Origin: a virus
Lineage: Duplodnaviria > Caudoviricetes
DNA: 51,893 nt
Reading direction: 5' to 3' (one strand)
Virus record (IMG/VR): IMGVR_UViG_3300048836_000042
Coordinates: 1 to 51,893 of that record
Shown here: in pieces, positions 1,959 through 39,685 of the stretch
Position numbering within the stretch: position 1 is the first letter of the stretch
Layout of the letters: every line of letters begins with the position of its first letter
Translations under genes and position numbers: made by a program
Notes under the pieces: model-generated
Seen by the model: only the letters and a program-made list of their open reading frames with translations
Told to the model about the DNA's origin: nothing
Database searches by the model: none

Positions 1959-3308
1959 ATGGCAACAAACTTTTGGGACTACGAATCTTGGGGGAACAAG
2001 TTCGACCCGTCGAAACTCGGCGGAGCACAGCAGACATTTCGCTACGATCCGTCATGGGGCGGCAGTGGCGAGAACTCGCTGGCATCGATGCTGCCGATGT
2101 TCGTGCAGCAGTCGCCGGGCGCCTTGCAGTCGCTCGGGTTGGCGGAAGCCGATCTAGGCTACGTGCCAGGCCGTTACGAACACGATTCCTATGTCGCCGA
2201 TCAATGGAACCTGAGTGATGCAGCGAAGAAGGCGCTGTCTGGTCTGTCCGTCGACGAGTTGGGCTACGGCGGCGGGAAGACGGCAAAGGCGTTGAAAGAC
2301 GGCGACGGCAACATTCTGGGCATGTCCAAACCGATCAGTCCGGCCGGCGGTGATCTGCTCGAAAATGCGATCATGGGCATCGTCGCCGCGGGCACGGGCG
2401 GAATTCTCGGGCAGGCACTCGGGTTTCTCCCTGGCGCAATGAATCCCCTACAACCTTCAACCTGGGGCGGAGCTGCAACTGCTTCTAACACTGGAGTTCC
2501 TTTTGAGCTAGGGAACATGGGTGGCGCCACGTCGCTACCTGTTTCTGGTGGTACCGCTACTGGCGCCGCTGGAAGCACCAATCCCCTATACCAACTAGGG
2601 GGTGCCAGCTTAGGCGGCACAGGTGGGGCTGCTGCCACAAGCCCGTACTCACTAGTTACTGGTAGCATGGCTCCCGGAACTACCGGAGCGCTTCTAGGTA
2701 ACACTCTGGGAGCAGCGCAAAGCGGACTCACTGCCACCGGTGCCGGACTTGGACTGACAGGACTTGGTTCTGTTCTAGGGGGCGGTATCGGAGATTCTAT
2801 TGGAGCAGGACTAGACTCAACTATCGGTAGTTCTTTAAAAGCCGCTATTCGCAAAGCTGTTGGTGGTCAGCAGGGTCAACCAGGCGGATTTAATCTCGGT
2901 AATCTCCTTGGTTCCCTTGGACAGATGTATCAAGCAAATCAGTATCAAAACAGTCTTGATAAACTGTATGGTACCCTGTCGGATACTGGCCCATACGAGG
3001 CCGCTCTTCGCCAAGAACTAGAGCGTAGGGATGCTGCCTCTGGCCGGCGTAGCCAGTACGGCCCCCGGGAAGTGGAACTACAAGCCAAGATGTATGACGC
3101 GCGCTCCAAGAATGCTACAACCCTTGCTGCATTGACTAGTAATCAGAACGCTGCTCTAGGTAGTATGCTGCAAGGCGGTATGCTTGCCAGTACTTCGAGT
3201 GGTCTACTTAATCCAAAGACTGGCGGGCTAGGACAGGTGGGGCAAGATATTTGGGACGGTATCACCGACAGTGATTGGTGGGGTGATCTCTTTGACTTCG
3301 GGGGCTAA
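1959..3308 (+). CDS. Gly/Ala-rich putative ejection (internal virion) protein
   Basis: 449-aa low-complexity ORF at the ejection-protein position. Confidence 0.6.
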   Translation: MATNFWDYESWGNKFDPSKLGGAQQTFRYDPSWGGSGENSLASMLPMFVQQSPGALQSLGLAEADLGYVPGRYEHDSYVADQWNLSDAAKKALSGLSVDELGYGGGKTAKALKDGDGNILGMSKPISPAGGDLLENAIMGIVAAGTGGILGQALGFLPGAMNPLQPSTWGGAATASNTGVPFELGNMGGATSLPVSGGTATGAAGSTNPLYQLGGASLGGTGGAAATSPYSLVTGSMAPGTTGALLGNTLGAAQSGLTATGAGLGLTGLGSVLGGGIGDSIGAGLDSTIGSSLKAAIRKAVGGQQGQPGGFNLGNLLGSLGQMYQANQYQNSLDKLYGTLSDTGPYEAALRQELERRDAASGRRSQYGPREVELQAKMYDARSKNATTLAALTSNQNAALGSMLQGGMLASTSSGLLNPKTGGLGQVGQDIWDGITDSDWWGDLFDFGG

Positions 3309-16914: not shown

Positions 16915-17523
16915 CCTATATGTTAGCTGCATGTTCCCATGCAGAGCAGACTATATCATCACCCATTTGCATGGGTGGGGTGCGCTTCCACAGTCTCCTG
17001 TGTACTCTCTTTCGAGATAGTCGTTACACCTTCAAAGGAGTTCCAACACTTGTGTTCAATTTGATGGCATCGCTTGCACAATACCTCCAGATTGCTATCA
17101 ACATTGTTGGTCCGGTTGTGATCTTTGTGGTGCCCTGCCCAAGTTCCTCGCTTGGAGGCGTCGATATCTGTACCACATCGTTCACAACAATAATTAAGAT
17201 ATTCCAAACGTTCTCTTGCAAGTCGCTGGAATACTGACAAACCATGGCGGTAGCCGGAAGCATCCGGCCCCCTTTTACTGCCCCGCCCCACACCTTTGAA
17301 TAGACCTTTCTTAATAGTCCATTCTTTAATCTGCTGCTTCTGTTTTGCTTTTGCGCAGGGCTTGCAACGCTTCTGGTTTCTTCCAGTACGTTGAAGGACA
17401 ACACCACAGTCTGTACACTGCATAATTATTTTCCTTTGCTTGGCTCGGGATTGTCCGGTCTGGAGTTCCCCCGAATTCACACCCTTCAACTAATACATTA
17501 CTGTATTAGCGGCCTTTATTCAA
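16915..17523 (-). mobile_element. Group I intron (about 609 nt) in DNA polymerase motif B
   Basis: P1 with U.G pair (GCU|UU..AAGGC); R-like AACGACUA; S-like GAUAUAGUCU; P9 CUGCAUG-GGAA-CAUGCAG; terminal G; splicing gives F-K-L-L-Y-G in frame. Confidence 0.9.
16959..17423 (-). CDS. Intron-encoded HNH homing endonuclease
   Basis: MQCTDC...CERC...HHKDHNRTNN...NLEVLCKRCHQIEH; AAGGA RBS; 3' end overlaps the intron core. Confidence 0.88.
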   Translation of the reverse strand: MQCTDCGVVLQRTGRNQKRCKPCAKAKQKQQIKEWTIKKGLFKGVGRGSKRGPDASGYRHGLSVFQRLARERLEYLNYCCERCGTDIDASKRGTWAGHHKDHNRTNNVDSNLEVLCKRCHQIEHKCWNSFEGVTTISKESTQETVEAHPTHANG

Positions 17524-17693
17524 AGCTTGAAGATGAAGATTTTAGCGATTGTTCTAGTCGGTAGTTTGAATCGCTCTTGATTGAGCGCATGGAGATCCAG
17601 TTTGTTAGAAAGTTCTGTGTGTAATACGTCATCTTTGTACCTATCCTCTGCTACGAAGATCTCAAGGCTTTTTACGTCTGCATTAATCAGCAT
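17524..17693 (-). CDS. Family A DNA polymerase, C-terminal gene, exon 1 (not in the ORF track)
   Basis: MLINADVKSLE (motif A) ... DLH ... RTIAKIFIFKL (motif B). Confidence 0.9.
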
Positions 17694-18870
17694 ACCTACT
17701 CACGAGTAGCTCGTCTACTTCCACAGGGGTGTTCTGCATGTTAGGCGCAGATGAGCTAAGTCGGCCGGTGATGACCACATTTTGATTATATTGCGGATGG
17801 ATTAGATCATCTTGCCAATTCATGTTTTTAATCTTCCCCTTTATGCTTTCAACCATTTCCACGACCTTGATTTTCCCGGACCTCTCAGCAAGTAGTTCCA
17901 GAAGTACCCCATTTTCTTTCTTACGACTCTTAAGTTGCTTGAGCGTCGGAGCGTCAGTCTGGTAAAAGCGTGTAGTGGCACTTGGATCCTCCGCCGTTTT
18001 CTTAACCTCTGTCCCCTCCAGCGGTTTAAAACGTTGGTCAAACGGAATGGCTGTAGTAAACCATCGTCTTTGAATATAGCTTTGCCCCGCCTTCTCACCA
18101 GTTTTGTATACGGCCGGACTTTCGGTTGCCCATTTAAATTGTATTTCGCCACCATAGAGGAGGGCACTTAGATGATCTCCAGAATCGTAATTGAAAGCAC
18201 CTTCAGGAATCCCATCAGGAAGATAGCCATTAAGCAAACGCTCAATACCGTTAATATCAGATGTGTACTTAGCCACCTTCTCATCTGCTTTAGCAGTATC
18301 AAACTTAACACCAGCCCACTCGGCAGCTTGTAAGGTCTTGAGGTCTTCACCTTCTAACCAGACCAATCTTTTCTGTTTTTCAGAGAGCATTCGCTGCTGT
18401 ACGTCAAAGAGCATTTTTGTAAGCTGCACGTCCCAGCAGTTGTACTCTTTGAGAATGGACAGTGGAATGTTTTCGGTACTGACACCCTGGTTCCAGTATT
18501 CGGCCACCAAGTCTGTTTTAACTGGTAGACCATATTCTTTACAAGTGTCATTAAGCGATGCAAACCTGTGCTCCTGCCCAGTGTAGATAAATTCCGCTAA
18601 TTGGCAGTCCCAGACTTTGTGGTTAGTTCGGAGCTTAATACCCACATTAGCAAGCCAGTGGATGTCGAACTTGATATTAAACCCAATGAGGCAATCAGCA
18701 CGCTCCACTGCCCTACTAAGAAAGGAAATAAAATCAGGGTCAGTGTAATATTTAAACACGATGCCATTACTGCTAAGGCAAGAATAACTGATGAGTCGGT
18801 TAAGCGGATCAAAAGGATGTCCTTTGTTATGTGTGGAAGTTTCAACGTCAAATACTAGGATGTTACTCAT
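17683..18870 (-). CDS. Family A DNA polymerase, N-terminal gene (3'-5' exonuclease + thumb)
   Basis: FDVET, GFNIKFD, YNCWDV, TGRLSSSAPNMQN. Confidence 0.9.
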   Translation of the reverse strand: MSNILVFDVETSTHNKGHPFDPLNRLISYSCLSSNGIVFKYYTDPDFISFLSRAVERADCLIGFNIKFDIHWLANVGIKLRTNHKVWDCQLAEFIYTGQEHRFASLNDTCKEYGLPVKTDLVAEYWNQGVSTENIPLSILKEYNCWDVQLTKMLFDVQQRMLSEKQKRLVWLEGEDLKTLQAAEWAGVKFDTAKADEKVAKYTSDINGIERLLNGYLPDGIPEGAFNYDSGDHLSALLYGGEIQFKWATESPAVYKTGEKAGQSYIQRRWFTTAIPFDQRFKPLEGTEVKKTAEDPSATTRFYQTDAPTLKQLKSRKKENGVLLELLAERSGKIKVVEMVESIKGKIKNMNWQDDLIHPQYNQNVVITGRLSSSAPNMQNTPVEVDELLVSRYAD

Positions 18871-23674: not shown

Positions 23675-24393
23675 TTACTCCTCAGATTATACATGTTAAT
23701 CAGTGCTTCTGCGTATTTTTCAAGCGTTGTACCCATGAGCCCCGGCCTCGAATTGACTTCCAGGACATAGCATTGATCCCGCTTCTCATTGTAGATGAGA
23801 TCCACAGCGCCATACTCATAGCCACATGCCGCAACTGCACGTATAGCCAGATCGGCAGCGCCATTAGGAGGATTAATCCCATCACGACAATAGACATAAC
23901 CATTGTTAACATTGCGAATACGAGTATCACGAGTGGACTCAAATCCGTGCTTCTTTCTTTTCTGCTGTACATCAATTACTTCTCCTCCGAAGACATGGAA
24001 GCGGTACTCTGATTTCTTGGGGATGTATTCCGTATACAGAGGTGCCATTGGTACGTCCACAATGCCCGGCTCAAACTGAACAATCCCCCGGCCATTCGTC
24101 GAGTTAACAAGGGTGCGTGCAAATACAGTTTTAGCAGAAAGATGCTCAATATCCGCAGCAGAAATGCAAAACTTAGGACAAGATACCGCTGCAAGTTGGA
24201 AGCGATGGAATTGTTCAACTTTATCCAGCGCCTGTTGAGTTACTTGGAAGAATGATCGACCTTGCTTTGCAGTTCGCCGCCGATAAACAGAATTAACTAC
24301 CCGCTCCTTGAGGGCGGATTGTAGTGCTTTGGCAAACTTACTACCAGGGGGGTTGACAACGATATAGAAGGGTTTGGTGTACATTAGTGGCAT
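23671..24393 (-). CDS. ATP-grasp ligase (RimK-like, phiEco32-type)
   Basis: DKVEQF, YIPKKSEYRFHV, YGAVD, VLEVNSRPG. Confidence 0.88.
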   Translation of the reverse strand: MPLMYTKPFYIVVNPPGSKFAKALQSALKERVVNSVYRRRTAKQGRSFFQVTQQALDKVEQFHRFQLAAVSCPKFCISAADIEHLSAKTVFARTLVNSTNGRGIVQFEPGIVDVPMAPLYTEYIPKKSEYRFHVFGGEVIDVQQKRKKHGFESTRDTRIRNVNNGYVYCRDGINPPNGAADLAIRAVAACGYEYGAVDLIYNEKRDQCYVLEVNSRPGLMGTTLEKYAEALINMYNLRSK

Positions 24394-25688
24394 TCAAGTT
24401 GTTTAACTTCCGTTGTGAGGACAGGAACAGGGTGCGTACAGAAGAGAGTCACTAGATTGTATTTCTCTCCCTCTGTTGGAGTAACTGTGTGGTGAACCAC
24501 TCCGCTTGTTGGTTCTACTTGATACAAGGAAACACTGGTGAAGTTCAAGGCTTCGATCTCCGTTACTCTTTGCAGCCGCAAATAGACTAGCGGGCTAGGC
24601 TTGCTGGGATCTGACGTAACCATAGAACCATACACAAGCCATTGTAGATTCTTTGGATCGTCATACAACTGCACATAGTCTGTGAACTCAACCAGAACTG
24701 TGTCGGGTTTGTTGACGCGGAACAGCTCCTTTATCTCGTCGGCTTCTGCGTCGCTTACCCGGAACTCCTCAAATTTATTTTCTATAATGTAATCGTATAG
24801 AGTCTTCTCGTTGTAGCTCCGGGTGGAATGCTCTACTGCTTGCCTAACCGTGTTAAGGTCCACTGGAGGACTGTAGTCATGGCGGTATGAGCCCGTTCCC
24901 ATGTACTGCCTGTAGTTTTGCCAGTGGGTGAGATCCTCGTCGTATTCTGTGCTGGCAGGAGCGTGTTGGTGCTGAAATTTATAGTCCAGCGGACCCACCT
25001 CGTATTTCCATTGACGCCCGTCAATTGTAAAGGTGTGCAGCTCACCCGGGGTAAGTAGCTGAACGTGGTCCTTAAGCTTCACCTTAGCCCTGCTTGCGGC
25101 ATAGAGGATCGTTTCACACTCGGATGCAAACAGATATCCGCCGTCCGTGGTCTCAACAATCCACAGGGGCCGCTCGTTATTCCGAATCAAGTGCAGTGAT
25201 TTCGTCTTGACATTATACCACACCAGAGCATAAGCGGCATTAATCTTTTGTAGAGCCTCCTCGATGTTGTCGTGGTCCGCAAGAACATGTGCAATTGCTT
25301 CGGAGTCCACCTCGACATCCTTATGGTGCTTATGGCTGCCGATATACGTGCCATTCTGCACCAGCACAATCTTGTCCTCTACCCAGAAAGGGTGGGCATT
25401 AGTGTCATTAACTGTGCCCCGAGTAGCAGCCCGGTTATGCCCCACCATGAACATCCCGGTAGACCAGCCCTTTCGCTCTAGGGCCTGGTATTCCCTATGC
25501 TGAATGAAATCAGGACCATGGATAGCAGCCTTGCGAATGTGCACATTGCTGTTGTTCTCCACAAGAAATACTCCGGTGCTGTCCCATCCACGCTGGGTAT
25601 CAAGAAACAGCATATCTTTGAACATCTTCTGCTCATTGGTGCTGAAACCATTCTGGAAACTAGCAACCATTCCAACGATGCCACACAT
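24384..25688 (-). CDS. Class II (Ntn) glutamine amidotransferase
   Basis: MCGIVG, RG.DSTG, GHNRAAT.G, NAHPF, NG, DSE, RN.ERPL. Confidence 0.92.
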   Translation of the reverse strand: MCGIVGMVASFQNGFSTNEQKMFKDMLFLDTQRGWDSTGVFLVENNSNVHIRKAAIHGPDFIQHREYQALERKGWSTGMFMVGHNRAATRGTVNDTNAHPFWVEDKIVLVQNGTYIGSHKHHKDVEVDSEAIAHVLADHDNIEEALQKINAAYALVWYNVKTKSLHLIRNNERPLWIVETTDGGYLFASECETILYAASRAKVKLKDHVQLLTPGELHTFTIDGRQWKYEVGPLDYKFQHQHAPASTEYDEDLTHWQNYRQYMGTGSYRHDYSPPVDLNTVRQAVEHSTRSYNEKTLYDYIIENKFEEFRVSDAEADEIKELFRVNKPDTVLVEFTDYVQLYDDPKNLQWLVYGSMVTSDPSKPSPLVYLRLQRVTEIEALNFTSVSLYQVEPTSGVVHHTVTPTEGEKYNLVTLFCTHPVPVLTTEVKQLECH

Positions 25689-26680
25689 TACAGCTCTACC
25701 TCCAAATTATTTACGATAGCTTGGTCATGGTCGAGGAAGTCGGCCGGTTCCGGCGCTGGCGGAACCACATCCTCGAACAGCTCGGGGTAATTTGCCCTAA
25801 GCTCATTAATCATCTGCGTGGTGCTTCTACTGACCTGCACCCCTGGTTTAATCTTGTTATTCAACAGGGCGTACTTCAGATTCAAGACACCGTTCTCCAT
25901 CAAAGCCGCCACATCTGCTCCTTGTAGGCATTCTGCATCTTCTCGGAAAACATCCCGCATGACACTAAAGTAGTGTGAGGTAGTGTTCAAGTCAATGAAA
26001 AGATTCTTCACCTGTTCAAAGGGAAGATTCCGGGCCAGATGAAAAATGTGCCCAATTAGACGGCACCACTCATAGATGAGTTCCTTGTTGTTGGTTCCGG
26101 GGAGATGCCGCCACTCAATGGTGCCCAGCGAAGTTACCGGAAGCAGGTTTAGGGCAGTGTATTTCTGCCAGTCATGGAACACTACGTCCTCCTTGTTTAG
26201 CATCTTCGTAATGGAGCGGTAATTCAATTGTGTTTCCGCCCAGGGAACACAGAAGATATTACGTCGCCGATCCATACCGGCATAGTTGAACAGCACCCCC
26301 TCAAACACCTGATAAATCATGCTAATAGAGGCTAGCTGTTCCACAGTCAGATCCTGCACATTGGTGTGGACATGGACTGAGCATCGCTCGCTGTAATTAG
26401 CGGGGCCCAACCAGTCATTGTGGGAAAAGAATGTGTCCAGAGCCCACACTAGGTTGCTGTAGGTCATGGGCTTCGTAATGAATTCCAATCCGCTATTGCG
26501 GAGAGAACCATCTTCCGTTACGTCTAGCCCCGGAGTCTGCATGTCGGGCCGGCAGCCCTCAATCTCAAGCTCGACTCCGTAGATAAGGGATGGGTCCGGG
26601 GGATTTCGCCGGGTCGCTTTGCTTGTTTTCCAGGGAGATACCGGCTTTAGCCCGTAGCGCATACAGATGGTGTCAGGCAT
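25688..26680 (-). CDS. Amidoligase (COOH-NH2 ligase family)
   Basis: GVELEIE, DGSLR..GLEF, RCSVHVH, KYTALNL, TIEWR. Confidence 0.88.
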   Translation of the reverse strand: MPDTICMRYGLKPVSPWKTSKATRRNPPDPSLIYGVELEIEGCRPDMQTPGLDVTEDGSLRNSGLEFITKPMTYSNLVWALDTFFSHNDWLGPANYSERCSVHVHTNVQDLTVEQLASISMIYQVFEGVLFNYAGMDRRRNIFCVPWAETQLNYRSITKMLNKEDVVFHDWQKYTALNLLPVTSLGTIEWRHLPGTNNKELIYEWCRLIGHIFHLARNLPFEQVKNLFIDLNTTSHYFSVMRDVFREDAECLQGADVAALMENGVLNLKYALLNNKIKPGVQVSRSTTQMINELRANYPELFEDVVPPAPEPADFLDHDQAIVNNLEVEL

Positions 26681-30712: not shown

Positions 30713-30915
30713 TTCGTTCCTTTGTGCGAGGAATTAAGACCTTTTAATAACGAATAATCAGTCACAACGATATAGTTGGACTTTGGCATTGGTACTATGC
30801 AATGACGATGTTCTTTTGCTTGGCGTTCTCCACAGCTAAGGCACAGATGATGACCAAGATTCCAACGCGCAGGAACCACATCATCGCCGCAAGCAGCGCA
30901 GTGGTGTCCATTCAT
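30709..30915 (-). CDS. Small Zn-finger protein (DksA/TraR C4-like spacing)
   Basis: CAACGD.V..AR...G..LCLSC. Confidence 0.65.
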   Translation of the reverse strand: MNGHHCAACGDDVVPARWNLGHHLCLSCGERQAKEHRHCIVPMPKSNYIVVTDYSLLKGLNSSHKGTK

Positions 30916-31421
30916 TTATCAATAATAATTTTAAAGTAAGTATCCGTGTCGGGTTCATACATCATAACCCCTTCCGGCCGCATATATCCCGGGGCCACCA
31001 AACTCCCATTTTGAATAAGAAAATTACGGGCTTCCTCCCAAGATGTCGCATGAATTACTGGAACCACCGAACAACATTTTGGAGTTTCTGGATTGTGTTC
31101 TCCCCACCGCCTTGTGTTAAACAAGCTGAATTTCTTCTCAGTTTGGTCATATCCTCTCTGAATCCCAGCTCCCCACCACTCACCAAAATGGTAACCGGGG
31201 CCTAATTTTAATAATTCTTCGTAATTTTCCATTGCCCATCTAGCGAACCCATAATTATCGTCTTCTGGGGAAATGAATCTCGTGCGAGACTGACAACGTA
31301 GATCCCCAGGATCTTCAGCACTAATCACCACACAAGCGTTTGTGCCGTCAATTTTTTCTGTGAAAACCGCCGGCCTCTTTTTTTCGAGTCGGATGATTTT
31401 TGGCCAAGGTTTGAATTCCAT
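30912..31421 (-). CDS. Minimal RNA ligase / nucleotidyltransferase
   Basis: TEKIDGTN (KxDG), QSR, FGEW.G.GIQ, F.LFN, PEGV. Confidence 0.8.
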   Translation of the reverse strand: MEFKPWPKIIRLEKKRPAVFTEKIDGTNACVVISAEDPGDLRCQSRTRFISPEDDNYGFARWAMENYEELLKLGPGYHFGEWWGAGIQRGYDQTEKKFSLFNTRRWGEHNPETPKCCSVVPVIHATSWEEARNFLIQNGSLVAPGYMRPEGVMMYEPDTDTYFKIIIDK

Positions 31422-32896: not shown

Positions 32897-32981
32897 TGGT
32901 GCGACCGATGGGACTCGAACCCATACGGATTACTCCGGCAGATTTTAAGTCTGCTGTGGCTACCAATTACACCACGGTCGC
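32897..32981 (-). tRNA. tRNA-Leu(UAA), CCA encoded
   Basis: GCGACCG/CGGTCGC acceptor stem, GCAGA-CTTAAAA-TCTGC anticodon arm, long variable arm, GGTTCGAGTCC T arm, ACCA end. Confidence 0.95.
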
Positions 32982-33840: not shown

Positions 33841-34470
33841 TCAGACCTCGTTCGCCTTGTTGCTGATCTCGACAAGAGTCTCGTACAGCCGCTGCTCCGT
33901 GGCGTCAGCATCCTGACTCGGGGCATTGTTCTTGAGAAACTTGGCAAGCTTCACCGCCAGGGTATCCGCCTTTCGGCCGGCCTTGGACTGCGAGAACGTC
34001 CGAGCATAGGCCACGAGCGTGTCATAGCCCGCATGTTCCAACATCTCCTTGTCGGTCTGGGCGTGCTTGCTCTTGTCGTCCAGGTTCTGGTTCACGTAGT
34101 CGCGCCAACCCTCGACACTGCCACCGCTGTTGAATGCATTGGCGATGGTTTGAAGCTTCGACACTTCGACAGACATGGAAGCCGTGTTCACCTTCGCGAA
34201 CTTCTCACCGAAGCCGGCCTCCTTCTGCGCCTTCGTCATCGATGCCTTGTCCGCCTTGATGGTGTTCAGGAACACGGTGCGGGCTTCCACTGTCATGTCG
34301 ATGATGCGGATAGCGAAGGCACGCCACTGACTGCGGCCACCCTTCGCATACGCCATGACTTCCGCCGCCAGCATGGTGCCGGCGAGCCTGTCATCCCTGG
34401 ATTCCACCCGAAGCGGTGCCTTCGTCATCGGACGGGAGCCAGTCTCGGCAATCACTTGCATCGAATGCAT
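33841..34470 (-). CDS. First early gene, helical hypothetical protein
   Basis: TAGGAGA RBS; GC3-rich codon usage. Confidence 0.8.
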   Translation of the reverse strand: MHSMQVIAETGSRPMTKAPLRVESRDDRLAGTMLAAEVMAYAKGGRSQWRAFAIRIIDMTVEARTVFLNTIKADKASMTKAQKEAGFGEKFAKVNTASMSVEVSKLQTIANAFNSGGSVEGWRDYVNQNLDDKSKHAQTDKEMLEHAGYDTLVAYARTFSQSKAGRKADTLAVKLAKFLKNNAPSQDADATEQRLYETLVEISNKANEV

Positions 34471-34899
34471 TTCAATCTCCTAGGTTAATACGCTCGACAT
34501 TGAACGTATTAGATAAGAGATTAATCTTATCAATCGGACACTCTAAGGATCTAGTCACAGTCTCACGACGTTAAAAGTGTTTCCATGTGCGTGCTCGCCT
34601 AGCATGGTGCCACCCATGCATGTATCCGATAAAGCTGTGACCGATTTTTGTAGTGCCGTCCACGTTTCTAACTAACCCTGCTGCTCGCATCCTCCAGAAC
34701 ATTCTACCGGGCAGAGTCATGACATATGCTCCCACATAGTCACGTAACTAACCTTCCGTTTGTCCTATGGTATCGCGCATTACCTAGGTTAATCTTCTCG
34801 CTACTAGGTCAACGTCTAGCGTATAGCTAGTATCACAGTATGCGTTACCCGTGTGGTTGCATTCGCGGCCTTCGCCACGCGGGAATACATCAATTAAGT

Positions 34900-34911
34900 T
34901 TTTAAAGAGCG
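34900..34911 (-). promoter_or_regulatory. boxA-like antitermination element
   Basis: CGCTCTTTAAAA immediately after the predicted TSS. Confidence 0.65.
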
Positions 34912-34918
34912 TGCTCAC

Positions 34919-34947
34919 ACTATAATCGAACTGAAAACCCGAGTCAA
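34919..34947 (-). promoter_or_regulatory. Early sigma70 promoter
   Basis: TTGACT-N17-TATAGT. Confidence 0.75.
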
Positions 34948-35023
34948 GCGCAGGGGCATTACCACCGAGCGGGTATGCGCCGCTACCTGTGAACCCTGCC
35001 AACTAGGACAGTTCGATTAACCG

Positions 35024-35035
35024 TGTTAAAGAGCG
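35024..35035 (-). promoter_or_regulatory. boxA antitermination element
   Basis: CGCTCTTTAACA, matching the rrn boxA core GCTCTTTAACA; downstream of extended -10 TGTGCATAAT. Confidence 0.7.
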
Positions 35036-35296
35036 TTGATATTTAATGTCATCTCTGACGGTTCCCATTATGCACACTAATGTGTTGTTTGGACGCCACA
35101 AATGGTAAGAATTTGTAACAGCGTAAGTGTGTACTCACTAACCTGGTCTGCGCCCGCGTCGCGCGATAGTCCAGAACGCGCGTAACGCACGCGCCCAGGC
35201 GCGCTAGGCGTGCCATGATACCACGTAGGCCAGGGGATGCAATAGGGGTTTACCCTGGGAATGTAACAGTGTGTGTGTTCTGTAACAGGATGTAGC

Positions 35297-35372
35297 TTAT
35301 CCACAGGCTTGATAACATGTGAACAACCTGTGGATTCACCTATGAAAACGGGTGTGGATAACATGTGAACAG
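35297..35372. promoter_or_regulatory. DnaA-box cluster
   Basis: Perfect TTATCCACA at 35297 (+) and 35353 (-), plus three degenerate boxes. Confidence 0.7.
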
Positions 35373-35499
35373 CCGCAGGCTGGGCAGATAACTTTTCCCT
35401 AGGGGTAGGGTACCTGGACGCTAGAAAAACGCTCTACGAGCCTTCTAGGGGCTTTGCTGGGGGTGCTCACATGGTGGGATGAAAGGGCACAGGATGGAA

Positions 35500-35559
35500 T
35501 GGCACGACGCTTGCTAGTGCCACTTGAGTCAACTCTGACGAGTTGGCATGGGCCTTGCT
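35500..35559 (+). promoter_or_regulatory. Two tandem sigma54 (-24/-12) consensus sites
   Basis: TGGCACGACGCTTGCT (35500-35515) and TGGCATGGGCCTTGCT (35544-35559). Confidence 0.65.
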
Positions 35560-35797
35560 TGGGGGGCCTTATACGGTACCGGGTGGGGTATATACCCCCC
35601 TAGGTATCTCTATCCCTGGAGACGGTAGCACCTATTCATTTGATAAATGTTGGTTTATCATGCTATAAAATATAGCAATTAATCGACTCTGTCCCCAATT
35701 TCAAGGGGGTGTGGGGGGAAAATTCTTGTGTTGGTGATGGGGTGTAATACACCATACTAAAATTCTTATAGTTTTTACACAATGGTCCTATAGGTCT

Positions 35798-35834
35798 AAA
35801 AAGAAAACCCCGGGGGTCGCTGACGCTCCCGGGG
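35798..35834 (-). terminator. Intrinsic terminator
   Basis: CCCCGGG...CCCGGGG-TTTTCTTTTT. Confidence 0.75.
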
Positions 35835-36138
35835 CTATAGACTTCTTATCGAAGATAAGACTAACTTTTATTGTTTTTATTATACATCACACGTAACACG
35901 TAGTGTTACAGTAGATATATTACATATATCACCCTTGGTGAAGACAAAGGTTAGCCATCCCACAATAAAGAGGATTAACCTTCATCTGCATCAAGGACAT
36001 CACCCTCGGAGCCAGACTGTACCTTGGACTGTTTTCACCACACGCTCTCAGGACACGTTGCACATCTGTGGATTTCCCGGTGGTATGTGCTTATTCAAGA
36101 CTGGAACCACCCGTTGAGTCCCCGTTCTTCCAGTCTAT
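35798..36138 (-). ncRNA. Candidate ~340-nt structured non-coding RNA
   Basis: Bounded by a strong promoter and a terminator; no long ORF; at least five hairpins. Confidence 0.5.
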
Positions 36139-36145
36139 GTCTAAT

Positions 36146-36174
36146 AGTATACCACAAATTTAGTAAAAAGTCAA
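36146..36174 (-). promoter_or_regulatory. Leftward sigma70 promoter
   Basis: TTGACT-N17-TATACT with TG extension. Confidence 0.8.
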
Positions 36175-36224
36175 GGGGTTTTATAAAAAAAGTTAAAAAA
36201 AGTTGCATTTTTATAAAAAAAGAC

Positions 36225-36253
36225 TTGACAAAAACAAAAAAGTGTGATATACT
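36225..36253 (+). promoter_or_regulatory. Rightward sigma70 promoter for the packaging/structural arm
   Basis: TTGACA-N17-TATACT with TG extension and A-tract UP element. Confidence 0.85.
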
Positions 36254-36274
36254 ATATGTATAGGATGAAAATTT

Positions 36275-36799
36275 ATGTCTGAAGTCACAAAATTACCAAA
36301 CGGTTTTTACCCAGAAATCCCGATGGAGAAGAAAATGGAGCTGATCAAAGCTTACGTTTCTCTTGGGAATATGCGGTTAGCCTCCGAAATGGTTGGTATC
36401 AACTATGAGACCGCTCGGTATTGGCGTAAAACCAAAGATTGGTGGCCTAAACTCATGGAGGAGGCCAAGCAGGAGCAGCGCCAGGAACTTCAAGGGCGTC
36501 TTGGTAAGATTACAGAAACCGCTCTTTCGATCATGGAAGATCGGCTTAAGAATGGTGAGTACATTCTGAACATAAAAACCGGAGATATTATCAGAAAACC
36601 CGTGGGCCTGCGGGACGCAAACCAGGCCGCCAATAATCTGATGACTCAAGCCACCAAGCTGGAAGAAATGAATAGTAAGTCGCATACAGTGGATGAGTCT
36701 ACAGCAGAAGTTCTTAAGCAACTGGCCAATGAGTTCGCTAAGTTTGCTAAGAAGAAAGTTAATACTGAAATTATAGACGTGGAAGTCAAGGAGATTTGA
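36275..36799 (+). CDS. Putative terminase small subunit
   Basis: N-terminal HTH-like segment (LASEMVGINYETARYW), helical core, first gene of the packaging arm. Confidence 0.6.
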   Translation: MSEVTKLPNGFYPEIPMEKKMELIKAYVSLGNMRLASEMVGINYETARYWRKTKDWWPKLMEEAKQEQRQELQGRLGKITETALSIMEDRLKNGEYILNIKTGDIIRKPVGLRDANQAANNLMTQATKLEEMNSKSHTVDESTAEVLKQLANEFAKFAKKKVNTEIIDVEVKEI

Positions 36800-37138
36800 A
36801 TGCTAGTTGTGAATCCAATTTTATCTTATGGTCCCGGATTTTTGCAAGTACGGCCGAACGAGAATTTGTACCAAAAACAAATTGGGACAATTCAAGGGCT
36901 AAACGAGTATGTTCGTTGGACCCTATCAACAGACTCCTCCGGGCCTTTCACCCTGGAACTTAGCCATAATTATGGGGATCAGACTACAGTAATGCTCTCA
37001 GGAAATGTCCCTGAACACAAAGGAACGTACCTTATCAATGCTCGAATTAAAGCCTCTGTACAAGTTGTATATGGGTACATTATGCCTGAACCAGCCGAAC
37101 AAGAAATTACGTTCAGTATTCAACTTAATGTTCGGTAA
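36800..37138 (+). CDS. Hypothetical protein
   Basis: AAGGAG RBS. Confidence 0.55.
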   Translation: MLVVNPILSYGPGFLQVRPNENLYQKQIGTIQGLNEYVRWTLSTDSSGPFTLELSHNYGDQTTVMLSGNVPEHKGTYLINARIKASVQVVYGYIMPEPAEQEITFSIQLNVR

Positions 37139-37141
37139 TTT

Positions 37142-37441
37142 ATGCCGTACATGACCGACGGAAAGCGGGACTACAAAAAAGAGGTGGCCAAATACACCTC
37201 CAAGCCCGAAGTAGTAAAGAAGCGTGTGGAGCAGAATAAAGCTCGTCGTATGGCTGAAAAAGAGGGTTTGGTGAAGAAGGGGGATGGCAAAGAGGTAGAT
37301 CATCGTAAACCCCTCTCTAAAGGGGGCACTACGACAAAATCAAATCTTCGTGTGGTTCCCGCCAAAGAAAACCGTTCGTTTAGCCGAAATAAAGATGGCT
37401 CTTTAAAAAATCAAACTAGTCGCCGTGAACGAAAAAAATAA
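37142..37441 (+). CDS. Small HNH protein (terminase-associated type)
   Basis: EVDHRKPLSKGG....NLRV....NRS. Confidence 0.8.
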   Translation: MPYMTDGKRDYKKEVAKYTSKPEVVKKRVEQNKARRMAEKEGLVKKGDGKEVDHRKPLSKGGTTTKSNLRVVPAKENRSFSRNKDGSLKNQTSRRERKK

Positions 37442-37480
37442 TTGCTCTAAATGTGGTTTATTTGCAGGGCAGGGTAAATA

Positions 37481-37918
37481 ATGTCTTTCTGGGGTAAACT
37501 GTTTGGCACTGATGAAGCCATCAGCAAAACAATTGATGTTGTTAGCGAAGGGCTTGACAAGCTAGTTTACACCTCTGAAGAGAAGGCGGATGCCGCCGCC
37601 AGGGAGCGGACAGAAGCTCGCTCCATGCTTGTTAAGTGGATGGAAGCCACGCAGGGCCAAAATCTTGCACGTAGGCTTATTAGTCTTGCTATCACAGGTG
37701 TCTGGTTATCCCAATACGTTATTGCTACTACTGCTTCCTCCGTTGCTATTTTCTGGGATACGCAATCAATTAATCTAAATAAATTGGCTGCTGTTCAAAT
37801 CGGTACTGCTGAACAGATGAACGGACCAGTAATGCTGATCTTAGCTTTCTACTTTGCTGCACCACACATGGGAGATTTTGCCCAGGCAATCGTCGGTAGA
37901 TTTAAGCAAAAAGTATAA
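37481..37918 (+). CDS. Holin-like membrane protein
   Basis: LD.LVYT.EEKA, two TM helices, ILAFYF. Confidence 0.6.
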   Translation: MSFWGKLFGTDEAISKTIDVVSEGLDKLVYTSEEKADAAARERTEARSMLVKWMEATQGQNLARRLISLAITGVWLSQYVIATTASSVAIFWDTQSINLNKLAAVQIGTAEQMNGPVMLILAFYFAAPHMGDFAQAIVGRFKQKV

Positions 37919-38202
37919 TGTACTCGAATTGCCTGTTCTGGTCAATCCGACGGTTTTGCCAGTTACAAAAAGAATGGATTGAAAACGGGGAGCAGAAAGG
38001 CTACGAGCCTGTCTGGTATCTCCGATCAAGTAGACTAGCCCCTTGGTGGGTTCCATCATGGGGTGTTGAGCGCCGAGTAGGCAATAAGATTATCACTGAA
38101 AAGTTTTCTCCAGAAAATAAAGAACGATTGAAGTGGTATCAAGTCTGGCGAAAATTCTGGTTTAAGGGTTATGTTGAAGTAACATATGCAGTTAACAAGT
38201 GA
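37918..38202 (+). CDS. Trp-rich hypothetical protein
   Basis: TAATG-coupled ORF. Confidence 0.55.
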   Translation: MYSNCLFWSIRRFCQLQKEWIENGEQKGYEPVWYLRSSRLAPWWVPSWGVERRVGNKIITEKFSPENKERLKWYQVWRKFWFKGYVEVTYAVNK

Positions 38203-39685
38203 AATTATTGCCGGTTTTAGTGGAAGTTTATTACAAAAAAGTTATGATCAAGCCGTCGAATCCCCTGAATGTCACGCCGAATGGTGGGACTTATGTACAT
38301 CCAAGGCCCCGAAGGTCGCAATTGCCGCTCCGAGGCGACATGCGAAAAGTACCGCAATTACTTTGGCCTACGTACTGGCGTGTCTACTGTTTCGCAACAG
38401 GAAATATGCCCTAATTGTTTCTGATACCATCACTCAGGCAACTCAGTTCCTGGGAGATATCAAGAAAGAGTTAGCAGACAACGATAGAATTATCAAGCTC
38501 TTTGGGATCAAAGAGTTTCTAAAAGACACCGAAGACGATGTGATTATCGCCTTCACAGATGGAGAACAGTTCCGTATTACTGCCAAAGGCTCCGAACAAA
38601 AACTTCGTGGTTTAAAGTGGAACAACAAACGACCCGATTTAATTGTAGGAGACGACCTTGAAAACGATGAAATCGTTCTCAACGCTGAACGTAGACAAAA
38701 GTTTAAACGCTGGTTCTACGGTGCTCTGGTTCCTTCTCTGGCTGTTAATGGCGTCATTAGGATTGTGGGGACTATTCTACACGAAGACAGCCTACTGAAC
38801 AACCTGATGCCCTCTGACTACGATAGAGATACCGTAGTAGAAGAGCTAAAGACGTACAACCCAAGAGCAACCAACAGTTGGAAAGCTCTTAAGTATCGAG
38901 CCCACTCAGATGATTTCAAGTACATCTTGTGGCCCCAGCGATACAAAGCAGATTGGTTCTTGTCCGAAAGACAGGATTTTATTGACCGCGGATTGGCGGA
39001 TGTATATTCTCAGGAATACCTGAACATCCCAATTGATGAAAGTGTTGCTTACTTCCGAAAGAGTGACTTCGTAGCTGAACATTCGGAAGACAAGAAAGCC
39101 AAGCTTAACTATTATATCACAGCGGACTTGGCAATTTCCCAGAAAGAAACAGCGGACTACTCCGTTTTTCTTATTGCTGGTGTGGATGAGAACAGAGTTA
39201 TCCATGTACGAAATGTGATCCGTGAGCGGTTGGATGGTAAAGAGATTGTAGACACCCTACTTAATTTACAAAAAGTCTACAACCCAGAGCTAGTCGGTAT
39301 CGAAGAAATGCAGGTGTCCAAGGCAATTGGACCGTTCCTTCGAGAAGAGATGATCAAGACCGGCAATTATATCAATCTTATTCCCCTGAAACACGGGGGT
39401 AAAGACAAGATTGCCAGGGCAAAGTCAGTACAGGCCCGGGTTAGGGCAAGAGCAGTAAAGTTTGATAAGTCAGGTGATTGGTACTCTATTTTCGAGGATG
39501 AACTTTGTAAGTTTCCTCGTGGAACGAAAGATGACCAAGTTGACGCATTCGCCTATTTGGGGCTAATGTTAGATTCATTAATCGAAGCCCCAACACGAGC
39601 AGAAGAAGAGGAAGAACAATACTACGATGATTTATCCAGAGCAAACCTCGGGAATGATGGCAAATCAGCCCTCTGTGGATACTAA
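38186..39685 (+). CDS. terL: Terminase large subunit
   Basis: APRRHAKST, LRG, RPDLIVGDDLE, GT.LHED, QEY.N, DLA, DDQVDA. Confidence 0.95.
   Translation: MQLTSEIIAGFSGSLLQKSYDQAVESPECHAEWWDLCTSKAPKVAIAAPRRHAKSTAITLAYVLACLLFRNRKYALIVSDTITQATQFLGDIKKELADNDRIIKLFGIKEFLKDTEDDVIIAFTDGEQFRITAKGSEQKLRGLKWNNKRPDLIVGDDLENDEIVLNAERRQKFKRWFYGALVPSLAVNGVIRIVGTILHEDSLLNNLMPSDYDRDTVVEELKTYNPRATNSWKALKYRAHSDDFKYILWPQRYKADWFLSERQDFIDRGLADVYSQEYLNIPIDESVAYFRKSDFVAEHSEDKKAKLNYYITADLAISQKETADYSVFLIAGVDENRVIHVRNVIRERLDGKEIVDTLLNLQKVYNPELVGIEEMQVSKAIGPFLREEMIKTGNYINLIPLKHGGKDKIARAKSVQARVRARAVKFDKSGDWYSIFEDELCKFPRGTKDDQVDAFAYLGLMLDSLIEAPTRAEEEEEQYYDDLSRANLGNDGKSALCGY

What the first reader, a model, noticed from the sequence alone, without database searches (positions are those of the whole stretch)
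35798..36174. Stand-alone ~340-nt structured RNA transcribed back-to-back with the packaging arm
A near-consensus leftward promoter (36146-36174) and a U-tailed terminator (35798-35834) enclose a segment with no ORF longer than about 23 codons that I could find. It is full of helices on the minus strand: AGACUGGAA/UUCCAGUCU at the very 5' end, GCACAU/AUGUGC, AAGGUUA..AUCC/GGAU..UAACCUU, GUAACAC/GUGUUAC and UCUUAUC/GAUAAGA. I do not recognise it as tRNA, tmRNA, 6S or SRP RNA. Inference: a novel phage sRNA (decoy or antitoxin mimic, packaging- or replication-linked).
Basis: partly seen in the sequence, partly recalled or inferred. Interest (0 to 1): 0.7.

Follow-up and report, generated by a model that had tools for sequence, protein, structure and literature searches.

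The report
Strain-specific early leader RNA, function unproven
A strong leftward promoter and a good terminator in this wastewater phage probably make a non-coding RNA of about 340 bases, but its body is an orphan, swappable insert with no counterpart in related phages, and only the small hairpin inside the terminator is conserved.

Summary
The anatomy is real. A sigma-70-type promoter (36174-36146, minus strand) sits back to back with the promoter of the packaging arm. An intrinsic terminator (35834-35798) follows about 340 nt downstream, and there is no convincing ORF between them.

The claim of a structured RNA family is not supported. No Rfam family matches. Fold stability (z -2.6 to -3.4) lies in the top 5-7% of this genome's own background, and the 5' third folds no better than shuffles. 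None of the related phages examined has the body; they carry a T/AT-rich leader at that place. Near-identical strains from wastewater runs show the region is mosaic: one named helix is deleted, the middle is replaced in another allele, and an HNH endonuclease gene is inserted between the promoters.

The conserved part is a hairpin with two tandem G.A pairs (35830-35815), found in 16 distinct versions with compensatory changes. In this lineage it has been built into the terminator.

Best reading (0.45): a non-coding early leader RNA released by premature termination, next to an origin-like region with DnaA boxes, with a hypervariable cargo body. A trans-acting sRNA is possible (0.2) but unsupported. 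No RNA data could be obtained.

The parts
36146..36174 (-). Leftward promoter P_L1 (TTGACT, 17 nt, TG-n-TATACT); predicted start near 36140-36138
   Evidence: A homologous promoter stands at the same place in relatives.
36225..36253 (+). Rightward promoter of the packaging arm (terS-like ORF 36275-36799), back to back with P_L1
   Evidence: The ORF matches phrog_4044, terminase small subunit, 3e-05, and weakly DUF1804.
35798..36140 (-). Predicted non-coding transcript of about 340 nt
   Evidence: It matches no Rfam family and has no homologue in relatives.
36018..36140 (-). 5' domain holding helices AGACUGGAA/UUCCAGUCU and GCACAU/AUGUGC. All strain alleles seen share it, but it folds no better than shuffles.
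   Evidence: z +0.55; pieces 36018-36157 have 0 other letters in X1, X2 and X4; a variant in X1 and X20 has changes at 36093-36103.
35933..35996 (-). Long hairpin with 21-nt arms (81% complementary). It nearly coincides with the 23-codon ORF 36000-35929 and lies inside the segment 35833-36017 that another allele replaces.
   Evidence: I4; z -2.33; records X2-10, X4-17, X20-12.
35886..35927 (-). 42-nt segment holding the GUAACAC/GUGUUAC hairpin. It is deleted between short direct repeats in other strains, so it is dispensable.
   Evidence: joint 35885/35928 in X1, X2, X4; L083.
35864..35881 (-). A-rich tract of six consecutive A-R-N triplets
   Evidence: one of 7 runs of 6 or more triplets on both strands of the window. 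The weak CrcZ and CyaR matches lie here.
35844..35860 (-). Hairpin UCUUAUC/GAUAAGA
35798..35834 (-). Intrinsic terminator: a G+C stem enclosing the conserved motif, then a U-rich run
   Evidence: In the replaced-middle allele the motif is again followed by a run of U (table 7, loose end at 35814).
35815..35830 (-). Conserved hairpin GGGAGC-loop-GCGACC with two tandem G.A pairs. It is the only part of the finding shared with related phages.
35705..35722 (-). Context: conserved run TTTTCCCCCCACACCCCC with a conserved block just upstream of it, 417-594 nt from terS in relatives

Best explanation
The unit is the promoter-proximal leader of a conserved leftward early promoter (P_L1). In this phage lineage the leader ends about 340 nt downstream at an intrinsic terminator, so a discrete non-coding RNA is released by premature termination.

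The terminator is a local elaboration of a family-wide hairpin with tandem G.A pairs: G+C arms and a U run have been added around it. The RNA body between promoter and hairpin is a hypervariable cargo slot, not a conserved structured RNA. Relatives fill the slot with a T/AT-rich leader, and one relative has a small ORF with its own terminator there. Co-circulating strains carry deleted or replaced versions of the body.

The likely role is in cis. Transcription from the strong P_L1 is stopped before it runs into the ORF-poor, origin-like region with DnaA boxes and the second early promoter P_L2.

Shown: promoter, terminator, absence of homologues, mosaic alleles, conservation of the hairpin. 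Inferred: that the RNA is made, that it terminates there, and the insulating role.
For: 1. The promoter pair is conserved in relatives. The terminator hairpin is stable at z -3.53.
2. The replaced-middle allele still has the motif followed by a U run, although the sequence after it differs (table 7).
3. The body has no homologue in 81 loci, in a 6.2-kb comparison, among 48 upstream regions, or in the phage and plasmid collections.
4. In the alignment of 12 syntenic regions, the window alone has about 230 nt of ordinary composition where the others have T/AT-rich sequence.
5. Alleles: a 42-nt deletion; 35833-36017 replaced; a 38-letter insert at 35828/35830; 450-620 letters inserted between the promoters. 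In L083 that insert is an HNH endonuclease gene (phrog_3322, 5e-27).
6. Hairpin: 16 distinct sequences, G.A/A.G invariant in 16 of 16. Pair 2 is GC 12 / CG 4, pair 5 GC 15 / AU 1, pair 6 CG 13 / GC 3, pair 7 CG 7 / AU 3 / G.A 2, and no Watson-Crick position is broken. On the 14-row alignment, 92.8% of cells are paired and 0 of 500 shuffles reach that.
7. A second leftward promoter (34947-34919, 10/12) precedes the first sizeable leftward ORF, so the early genes need not depend on P_L1.
8. Terminator-like hairpins occur in the P_L1 leaders of 6 of 11 relatives scanned.
9. Leader-derived ncRNA candidates made by premature termination are reported in virulent Pseudomonas phages (PMC10914365, passages read).
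Against: - No RNA evidence of any kind: no listed holder is on record as RNA.
- The counts of promoter-like and terminator-like sites in the 3-kb region are not above shuffles.
- The body is letter-identical in strains whose flanks differ by 2-9% (record X2-9 has 14 differences in 35603-35756 and none in 35757-36047). That fits purifying selection or a recently spread functional module at least as well as neutral cargo.
- An A-R-N tract plus a U-tailed terminator resembles Hfq-binding sRNAs.
- In most relatives no U run follows the hairpin, so termination at the hairpin is a lineage trait, not the family rule.
- I picked 4 of the 18 hairpin instances by eye.
Confidence: 0.45

Rival explanations
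1. The body is a functional trans-acting small RNA carried as an accessory 'RNA moron' in the early slot. It would be expressed immediately from a host-type promoter, bind Hfq through the A-R-N tract and the U tail, and act as a sponge or decoy or pair with host mRNAs.
For: It has a discrete promoter-to-terminator unit. A tract of six A-R-N triplets lies about 30 nt before the terminator. The module is 100% identical across strains with diverged flanks. The one substitution seen, 35961 G to A in L083, changes Gly to Arg in the small ORF but keeps the predicted pair, G.U to A-U. No ORF has a family or a homologue.
Against: There is no homologue beyond near-identical strains, so no covariation. 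The 5' domain shared by all alleles is not unusually structured, z +0.55. One hairpin is dispensable and the middle is replaceable. Pairing to the phage's own 98 translation start regions is no better than for shuffled RNA: 73 of 100 shuffles do as well. The best repeat or complement elsewhere in the genome is 13 nt, E 0.21. The CrcZ and CyaR matches are far below threshold. Seven comparable A-R-N runs exist in the genome. The host is unknown, so host targets could not be tested.
Confidence: 0.2
2. An origin-proximal transcript. P_L1 transcription towards the DnaA-box region activates or primes replication, and the RNA itself is a by-product or a primer precursor.
For: The only two exact matches to the DnaA-box 9-mer in the window lie 440-500 nt beyond the terminator (35297-35305 plus strand, 35353-35361 minus strand). 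In relatives such boxes occur at 0.28 per kb in the 1.3 kb upstream of terS against 0.02 per kb elsewhere (16 in 56,466 nt against 11 in 463,425 nt). The region is ORF-poor in the window, L004 and L005. The minimum of cumulative GC skew falls at 34-35 kb.
Against: A strong terminator stands between promoter and boxes. GC skew also follows the direction of transcription, which switches here. No initiator protein was identified. With one mismatch allowed, DnaA-box matches are only weakly enriched in the window as a whole: 21 against 12.8 +/- 3.7, with 4 of 100 shuffles reaching 21.
Confidence: 0.1
3. No meaningful RNA. The segment is filler or scar left by recombination and homing-endonuclease traffic at a hot spot. 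The conserved hairpin, the C run and the neighbouring block work on DNA (packaging or replication site).
For: The region is mosaic, with an HNH gene in one allele and, in L038, a small ORF with its own terminator at the same slot (the ORF was read by eye). Of the 47 relatives' upstream regions taken, 15 were cut short by a contig end; further contigs stop nearer still to terS. The 5' domain is structurally ordinary.
Against: The hairpin's two mismatches are G.A on the leftward strand in all 16 versions and would be C/T mismatches on the other strand. A double-stranded palindromic binding site would be expected to be symmetric. P_L1 is kept at near-consensus quality in relatives. The body is identical across strains.
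Confidence: 0.13
4. The region encodes a micro-protein of 23 codons (ATG 36000) or 44 codons (GTG 36063).
For: The frame is open. GAGG lies upstream of the ATG. The replaced segment 35833-36017 starts 17 nt before that ATG and holds the whole 23-codon ORF.
Against: GAGG ends only 3 nt before the ATG, whereas the neighbouring genes have AGGAG or AGGA about 7 nt before theirs. There is no Pfam or PHROG match at E up to 1. No protein of 24-77 residues in the 5.8 billion-sequence collection shares three 5-residue words with the 44-aa ORF. The ORF nearly coincides with a 64-nt hairpin. The only substitution seen is non-synonymous. The peptide is not hydrophobic, so it is unlike small membrane toxins (read).
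Confidence: 0.05

Closest known systems
Leader (5'UTR)-derived ncRNA candidates made by premature termination in virulent Pseudomonas phages (Putzeys et al. 2024, PMC10914365; passages read)
   Same: A defined promoter and an early terminator upstream of genes on the same strand give a short RNA with no convincing SD-preceded ORF, in a lytic phage that uses host-type promoters.
   Different: Those candidates rest on long-read RNA data and northern blots, and the paper says they are conserved within a genus. Here there is no RNA data and the body is absent from all relatives found.
Lambda OOP RNA (recalled, not looked up)
   Same: A short transcript with its own promoter and intrinsic terminator beside the replication origin region.
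   Different: As I recall it, OOP is about 77 nt and acts as an antisense to cII. Here there is no overlapping gene, the RNA is about 340 nt, and no antisense target was found.
Lambdoid nut (boxA/boxB) and HK022 put sites (recalled) as models for the conserved hairpin
   Same: A small conserved hairpin in the leader just downstream of an early promoter. BoxA-like words stand further down the same strand (34910-34902 and 35034-35026).
   Different: The hairpin's loop varies from 3 to 18 nt and the invariant part is the tandem G.A stem. No N-like protein was identified. In the window the hairpin is part of a terminator rather than a site that overrides one.
Hfq-binding sRNAs and the Hfq sponge CrcZ (Rfam RF01675; CyaR RF00112)
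   Same: An A-rich A-R-N tract followed by a U-tailed intrinsic terminator.
   Different: Scores are 11.7 and 17.2 bits against gathering scores of 95 and 47. Only the A-rich stretch and the terminator align.
phi29 packaging RNA (recalled)
   Different: No Rfam family of any kind matched. This phage has a terS/HNH/TerL packaging module, and the RNA is on the opposite strand to it.
Phage morons and free-standing homing endonuclease genes in intergenic slots
   Same: A variable insert with promoter and terminator between conserved modules. An HNH gene (L083) and a small ORF (L038) occupy the same neighbourhood in other genomes.
   Different: The insert here has no convincing coding capacity.

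Membership tests
Sigma-70 promoter | -35 and -10 hexamers close to consensus with 16-18 nt spacing | tested here: met
   10 of 12 with TG, 17-nt spacer; conserved in relatives.
Sigma-70 promoter | Mapped transcription start | not testable with these tools
   No RNA holder listed.
Intrinsic (Rho-independent) terminator | G+C-rich hairpin directly followed by a U run | tested here: met
   -20.2 kcal/mol, z -3.53; listed by the scan.
Any Rfam 15 family (tRNA, tmRNA, 6S, SRP, phage RNAs, ribozymes, riboswitches, CyaR, CrcZ) | Score at or above the family's gathering threshold | tested here: not met
   No match at gathering. The best matches at E up to 10 are 18.1, 17.2 and 11.7 bits against 100, 47 and 95. 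ARAGORN finds only tRNA-Leu at 32897-32981.
Conserved structured RNA (a new family) | Homologues in related genomes whose helices covary | tested here: not met
   Relatives have no homologue of the body. Only near-identical copies exist, with one substitution.
Conserved structured RNA (a new family) | Folding energy clearly beyond the genomic background | tested here: inconclusive
   z -2.6 to -3.4 against 4 of 56 and 3 of 56 background windows; the 5' domain has z +0.55.
Leader-derived phage ncRNA by premature termination | Promoter and terminator upstream of same-strand genes, with no SD-preceded ORF | tested here: inconclusive
   The architecture is met. A 23-codon ORF has GAGG 3 nt before its ATG. 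The RNA itself was not observed.
Hfq-binding sRNA | U-tailed terminator plus an A-R-N or U-rich Hfq site | tested here: met
   The motif is common: 7 runs of 6 or more triplets in the window.
Hfq-binding sRNA | Complementarity to target mRNAs; binding to Hfq | tested here: not met
   Pairing to phage start regions is no better than for shuffles. Host targets and Hfq binding are not testable here.
Type I toxin mRNA | Small hydrophobic membrane peptide | tested here: not met
   The 23- and 44-residue products hold Pro, Lys, Asn, Gln and His and have no hydrophobic span (read).
Kink-turn | Three-nucleotide bulge directly 5' of the tandem G.A pairs (feature recalled) | tested here: not met
   Two Watson-Crick pairs flank the G.A pairs on both sides in all 16 versions.
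Lambdoid boxB | Short stem with a loop of fixed size and purine-rich sequence (feature recalled) | tested here: not met
   Loops vary from 3 to 18 nt and in sequence.

The most novel reading that the evidence does not exclude
The slot just downstream of the conserved early promoter is a hypervariable 'RNA moron' site. Co-circulating strains of this wastewater phage carry alternative early RNAs there (the window's body, a deleted form, a replaced middle), and each ends at the same conserved tandem-G.A hairpin. The window's allele would be a functional decoy or Hfq-binding RNA that acts on the host at the very start of infection. The hairpin would be a new cis-acting RNA signal, for processing, protein binding or termination control, shared by a clade that includes the cultured Alcaligenes phage vB_Af_QDWS535.
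Probability: 0.12. Interest if true: 0.6.

Novelty: new member of a known kind. Interest (0 to 1): 0.3.

Why it matters
If the RNA is made, it adds one more case to the growing list of short early leader RNAs of lytic phages. Its body is swapped between strains, which is the pattern seen at accessory and counter-defence loci.

The more solid and reusable result is the family-level map of the arm junction:
- a conserved divergent promoter pair;
- a strand-specific hairpin with tandem G.A pairs, supported by compensatory changes;
- a conserved C-rich block;
- a cluster of DnaA boxes.

The promoter, a hairpin of this kind and the C-rich block also stand in a cultured Alcaligenes phage (DnaA boxes were not looked for there), so they can be tested at the bench. 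As it stands, the finding itself is an unconfirmed orphan RNA of modest interest.

Tried and rejected
- Rfam at gathering and at E up to 10 on the window, and at gathering on 13 relatives' loci. Only a group I intron and tRNAs were found.
- blastn and tblastx of the region against 81 loci and 48 upstream regions. Only the promoters and the stretch beyond the terminator match.
- Phage collection (2-kb query) and plasmid collection: no match.
- Exact 21-mer from the 5' hairpin: 0 hits in IMG/VR, 1 JGI contig. Exact 19-mer across the terminator motif: 0 hits in IMG/VR.
- Sequencing runs: no RNA holder listed. X20 is labelled RNA-Seq but is probably DNA, and its contigs give no start, end or strand.
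- Is the RNA part of the HNH gene's mobile unit? 20 loci with relatives of the L083 endonuclease show no similarity to the RNA.
- Antisense to the phage's own start regions: the best duplex is no better than for shuffled RNA. Repeats or complements elsewhere in the window: at most 13 nt.
- Small ORFs: no Pfam or PHROG hit and no homologue of the 44-aa ORF. Only lengths of 24-77 residues were searched.
- Kink-turn, boxB, cohesive-end site and CsrA-type GGA hairpins were considered for the conserved hairpin and neighbouring repeats. All were dropped: no bulge, variable loop length, and GGA absent in most relatives.
- MAFFT put the 5' arm of the 17-row hairpin alignment out of register, so the pairs were counted by script instead.
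- A long alignment of the ORF-poor gap was mostly unalignable outside a few blocks and was not used for structure.
- Not available: earlier findings and relatives of a virus record.

Full report
CONTEXT

The window is a complete 51,893-bp virus record with direct terminal repeats. The genes form two arms. The leftward arm (about 9000-34470, minus strand) carries:
- DNA polymerase;
- a DnaB-like helicase;
- ribonucleotide reductase;
- an amidoligase and an amidotransferase;
- an RNA ligase;
- tRNA-Leu.

The rightward arm starts at 36275 with a terS-like ORF, a 99-aa HNH protein, TerL (38186-39685) and the portal. Between the arms lies an ORF-poor gap, 34470-36275. The finding occupies the right-hand end of that gap. 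The nearest named relatives by TerL are MW202796.1 (51.6%) and Alcaligenes phage vB_Af_QDWS535 (54.2%). Near-identical sequence is held by wastewater and activated-sludge runs of 9 studies.

THE OBSERVATION

The leftward promoter (36174-36146: TTGACT, 17 nt, TATACT with TG) and the rightward promoter (36225-36253) are the two best sigma-70 matches in 34500-37500. The total number of promoter-like sites there (5) equals what shuffles give. The terminator at 35834-35798 is a stable G+C hairpin followed by a U run (z -3.53, 1 of 200 shuffles).

As a whole, the 343 nt fold to -107.2 kcal/mol, with z -2.62 or -3.36 in my own run. The complementary strand scores -3.0. Among 56 windows of equal length taken across the genome, 4 reach -2.6 and 3 reach -3.36.

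Split up, the 5' 123 nt are ordinary (z +0.55). The signal comes from the long hairpin at 35996-35933, an AU-rich hairpin, and the terminator.

On the minus strand the longest ATG ORF is 23 codons (36000-35929). From GTG 36063 it reads 44 aa.

No Rfam family matches. The three hits at E up to 10 (Gl_U6, CyaR, CrcZ) lie far under threshold and cover only the A-rich stretch and the terminator.

RELATIVES

TerL fetched 80 related loci from IMG/VR. Neither blastn nor tblastx finds the RNA body in any of them. Only the two promoters match, plus, in L023, the stretch beyond the terminator. The phage and plasmid collections give nothing.

Twelve syntenic regions were aligned. They show a shared plan, in this order:
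1. the rightward promoter;
2. the leftward promoter (12/12 or 11/12 in L004 and L005);
3. about 100 nt of T/AT-rich leader;
4. a small hairpin motif;
5. 100-200 nt that include two roughly 21-nt repeats;
6. a conserved block ending in a run of the form TTTTCCCCCCACCCCC (window 35722-35705).

The window keeps the promoters, the hairpin, the block and the C run. In place of the T-rich leader it has about 230 nt of ordinary composition, and it lacks the repeats. L038 has a small ORF with its own terminator in the same slot (read by eye). The cultured Alcaligenes phage has the same plan: a 12/12 promoter, an AT-rich leader, a hairpin with the two arms in swapped order (by eye), the block and the C run.

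STRAINS

Contigs of four runs were laid on 35500-36500. One JGI contig, L083, was also compared. Together they show several alleles of this very phage.
(a) The body is letter-identical in X1, X2 and X4 over 35757-36157. In the same X2 contig, the stretch 35603-35756 has 14 differences.
(b) A 42-nt deletion (35886-35927) between short direct repeats removes the GUAACAC/GUGUUAC hairpin. It is present in three studies and in L083.
(c) In records X2-10, X4-17 and X20-12, the segment 35833-36017 is replaced by about 162 other letters, while 36018-36047 and the motif 35814-35832 are kept. Beyond the motif that allele again has a U run, though a different sequence (table 7).
(d) A 38-letter insert sits at 35828/35830 in X1 and X2.
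(e) 450-620 letters are inserted between the two promoters.

In L083 the inserted stretch between the promoters is a 161-aa HNH endonuclease gene with its own promoter and ribosome-binding site (phrog_3322, 5e-27). L083 differs from the window's RNA by one substitution at 35961. It changes Gly to Arg in the 23-codon ORF and G.U to A-U in the predicted hairpin. Relatives of that endonuclease elsewhere have no RNA-like flank.

THE CONSERVED HAIRPIN

The motif GGGAGC-loop-GCGACC (35830-35815) recurs on the leftward strand upstream of terS in the closer clade. Four further versions of the form GCGAG..-loop-..CGAGC were picked by eye.

Counted over 18 instances, 16 of them distinct:
- the two central positions are G.A and A.G in 16 of 16;
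- pair 2 is G-C 12 / C-G 4;
- pair 5 is G-C 15 / A-U 1;
- pair 6 is C-G 13 / G-C 3;
- pair 7 is C-G 7 / A-U 3 / G.A 2;
- no Watson-Crick position is ever broken;
- loops run from 3 to 18 nt.

On the 14-row alignment, the tool gives 92.8% of cells paired, 2 of 5 pairs with changes on both sides, and 0 of 500 shuffles reaching the observed pairing or covariation score. On the other strand the mismatches would be C/T. The element therefore looks like a single-stranded, strand-specific structure, most simply part of the P_L1 transcript. It has no 3-nt bulge, so it is not a kink-turn. It has no fixed loop, so it is not boxB-like.

Only in the window's lineage is it wrapped in extra G+C arms and followed by U's. 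Some relatives have other terminator-like hairpins in the leader (6 of 11).

SURROUNDINGS

Beyond the terminator lie:
- the C-run block;
- the only two exact DnaA-box words of the window (35297-35305 and 35353-35361);
- a G+C-rich stretch also seen in L004 and L005;
- a second leftward promoter (34947-34919);
- two copies of a word, GCTCTTTAA (34910-34902 and 35034-35026). It resembles the boxA antitermination element as I recall it.

In relatives, exact DnaA boxes are twelve times denser in the 1.3 kb upstream of terS than elsewhere in the loci. This looks like an origin and regulatory region. That is inference.

READING

The promoter and terminator most likely define a real, non-coding early unit. 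Its body, however, is not a conserved structured RNA. It is an orphan, strain-level cassette in a slot that other genomes fill differently, and parts of it are dispensable.

I therefore read it as a leader RNA released by premature termination, whose main role is in cis: stopping P_L1 transcription before the origin-like region. The conserved hairpin is the functional core (confidence 0.45).

The identity of the body across diverged strains, together with the A-R-N tract and U tail, keeps a trans-acting, Hfq-type or decoy sRNA alive (0.2). The other rivals:
- origin-proximal priming or activation (0.1);
- a DNA-level site with no meaningful RNA (0.13);
- a micro-protein (0.05).

Pairing to the phage's own start regions and self-complementarity are at chance level.

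COMPARISON AND VERDICT

The closest known kind is the leader-derived ncRNA candidate made by premature termination in virulent Pseudomonas phages (PMC10914365, passages read). By position it also recalls lambda OOP (recalled). It is not a member of any Rfam family.

Two literature searches turned up nothing on a tandem-G.A leader hairpin in phages. That is a weak negative, from listings only.

Verdict: observation partly confirmed, interpretation partly supported, a new member of a known kind, interest 0.3.

Noticed in passing
window 16927-17533 (-): Group I intron (Rfam RF00028, 58 bits, E 3.4e-12). It lies next to ORF 17683-18870, which matches DNA polymerase families, so the polymerase gene is probably split by the intron.
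   Followed up: partly
window 35297-35305 (+) and 35353-35361 (-): The only two exact DnaA-box words in the window, 48 nt apart and in inverted orientation, lie in the ORF-poor gap. In relatives such boxes occur at 0.28 per kb upstream of terS against 0.02 per kb elsewhere. This may be the origin of replication.
   Followed up: partly
window 34919-34947 (-), 34902-34910 and 35026-35034: A second leftward promoter (TTGACT-17-TATAGT) is followed at once by GCTCTTTAA, and a second copy of that word lies 124 nt upstream. Similar words (CTTTAACAA) follow the equivalent promoters in L004 and L005. They resemble boxA antitermination elements (recalled).
   Followed up: partly
window 35705-35760 (-); L004 2304-2319, L005 3729-3747, L113 about 3245-3265: A conserved block ends in a run of the form TTTTCCCCCCACCCCC, always on the leftward strand and 417-594 nt from terS. 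The C run varies in length (5, 6, 7 or 9), so it is not coding. Its role is unknown; a Rho-loading site, a packaging site and an origin site were considered.
   Followed up: partly
L083 354-839 (-): In a near-identical strain, a 161-aa HNH endonuclease gene with an N-terminal helix-turn-helix is inserted between the two divergent promoters. It looks like a free-standing homing endonuclease.
   Followed up: partly
L038, between the leftward promoter and the C run: A small ORF of about 100 aa with its own terminator occupies the slot that holds the RNA body in the window. By eye it has a D...E-x-K pattern like restriction-type nucleases. This was not tested.
   Followed up: no
loci L002-L070: Fifteen of the 47 relatives' upstream regions taken were cut short by a contig end within 1.3 kb upstream of terS, and several more contigs stop still nearer to terS or inside it. 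Possible causes are assembly breaks at a hypervariable or AT-rich region, or true genome ends.
   Followed up: no
relatives L004, L005, L022, L108 (leader, after the hairpin): Two tandem repeats of about 21 nt (of the type CCTAGAAG...TTTAAA), spaced about two helical turns apart, are absent from the window. They may be iterons or paired small hairpins.
   Followed up: no
window 24384-26680 (-): Adjacent glutamine amidotransferase-like and amidoligase genes. In other phages this pairing goes with DNA base hypermodification (recalled).
   Followed up: no
window 30912-31421 (-) and 32897-32981 (-): An RNA ligase gene lies near tRNA-Leu(TAA). This hints at tRNA repair or supply against host anticodon nucleases.
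   Followed up: no
window 36179-36192 and 36209-36222: An exact 14-nt direct repeat, TTTTATAAAAAAAG, lies between the two divergent promoters. It may be a pair of UP-like elements.
   Followed up: no
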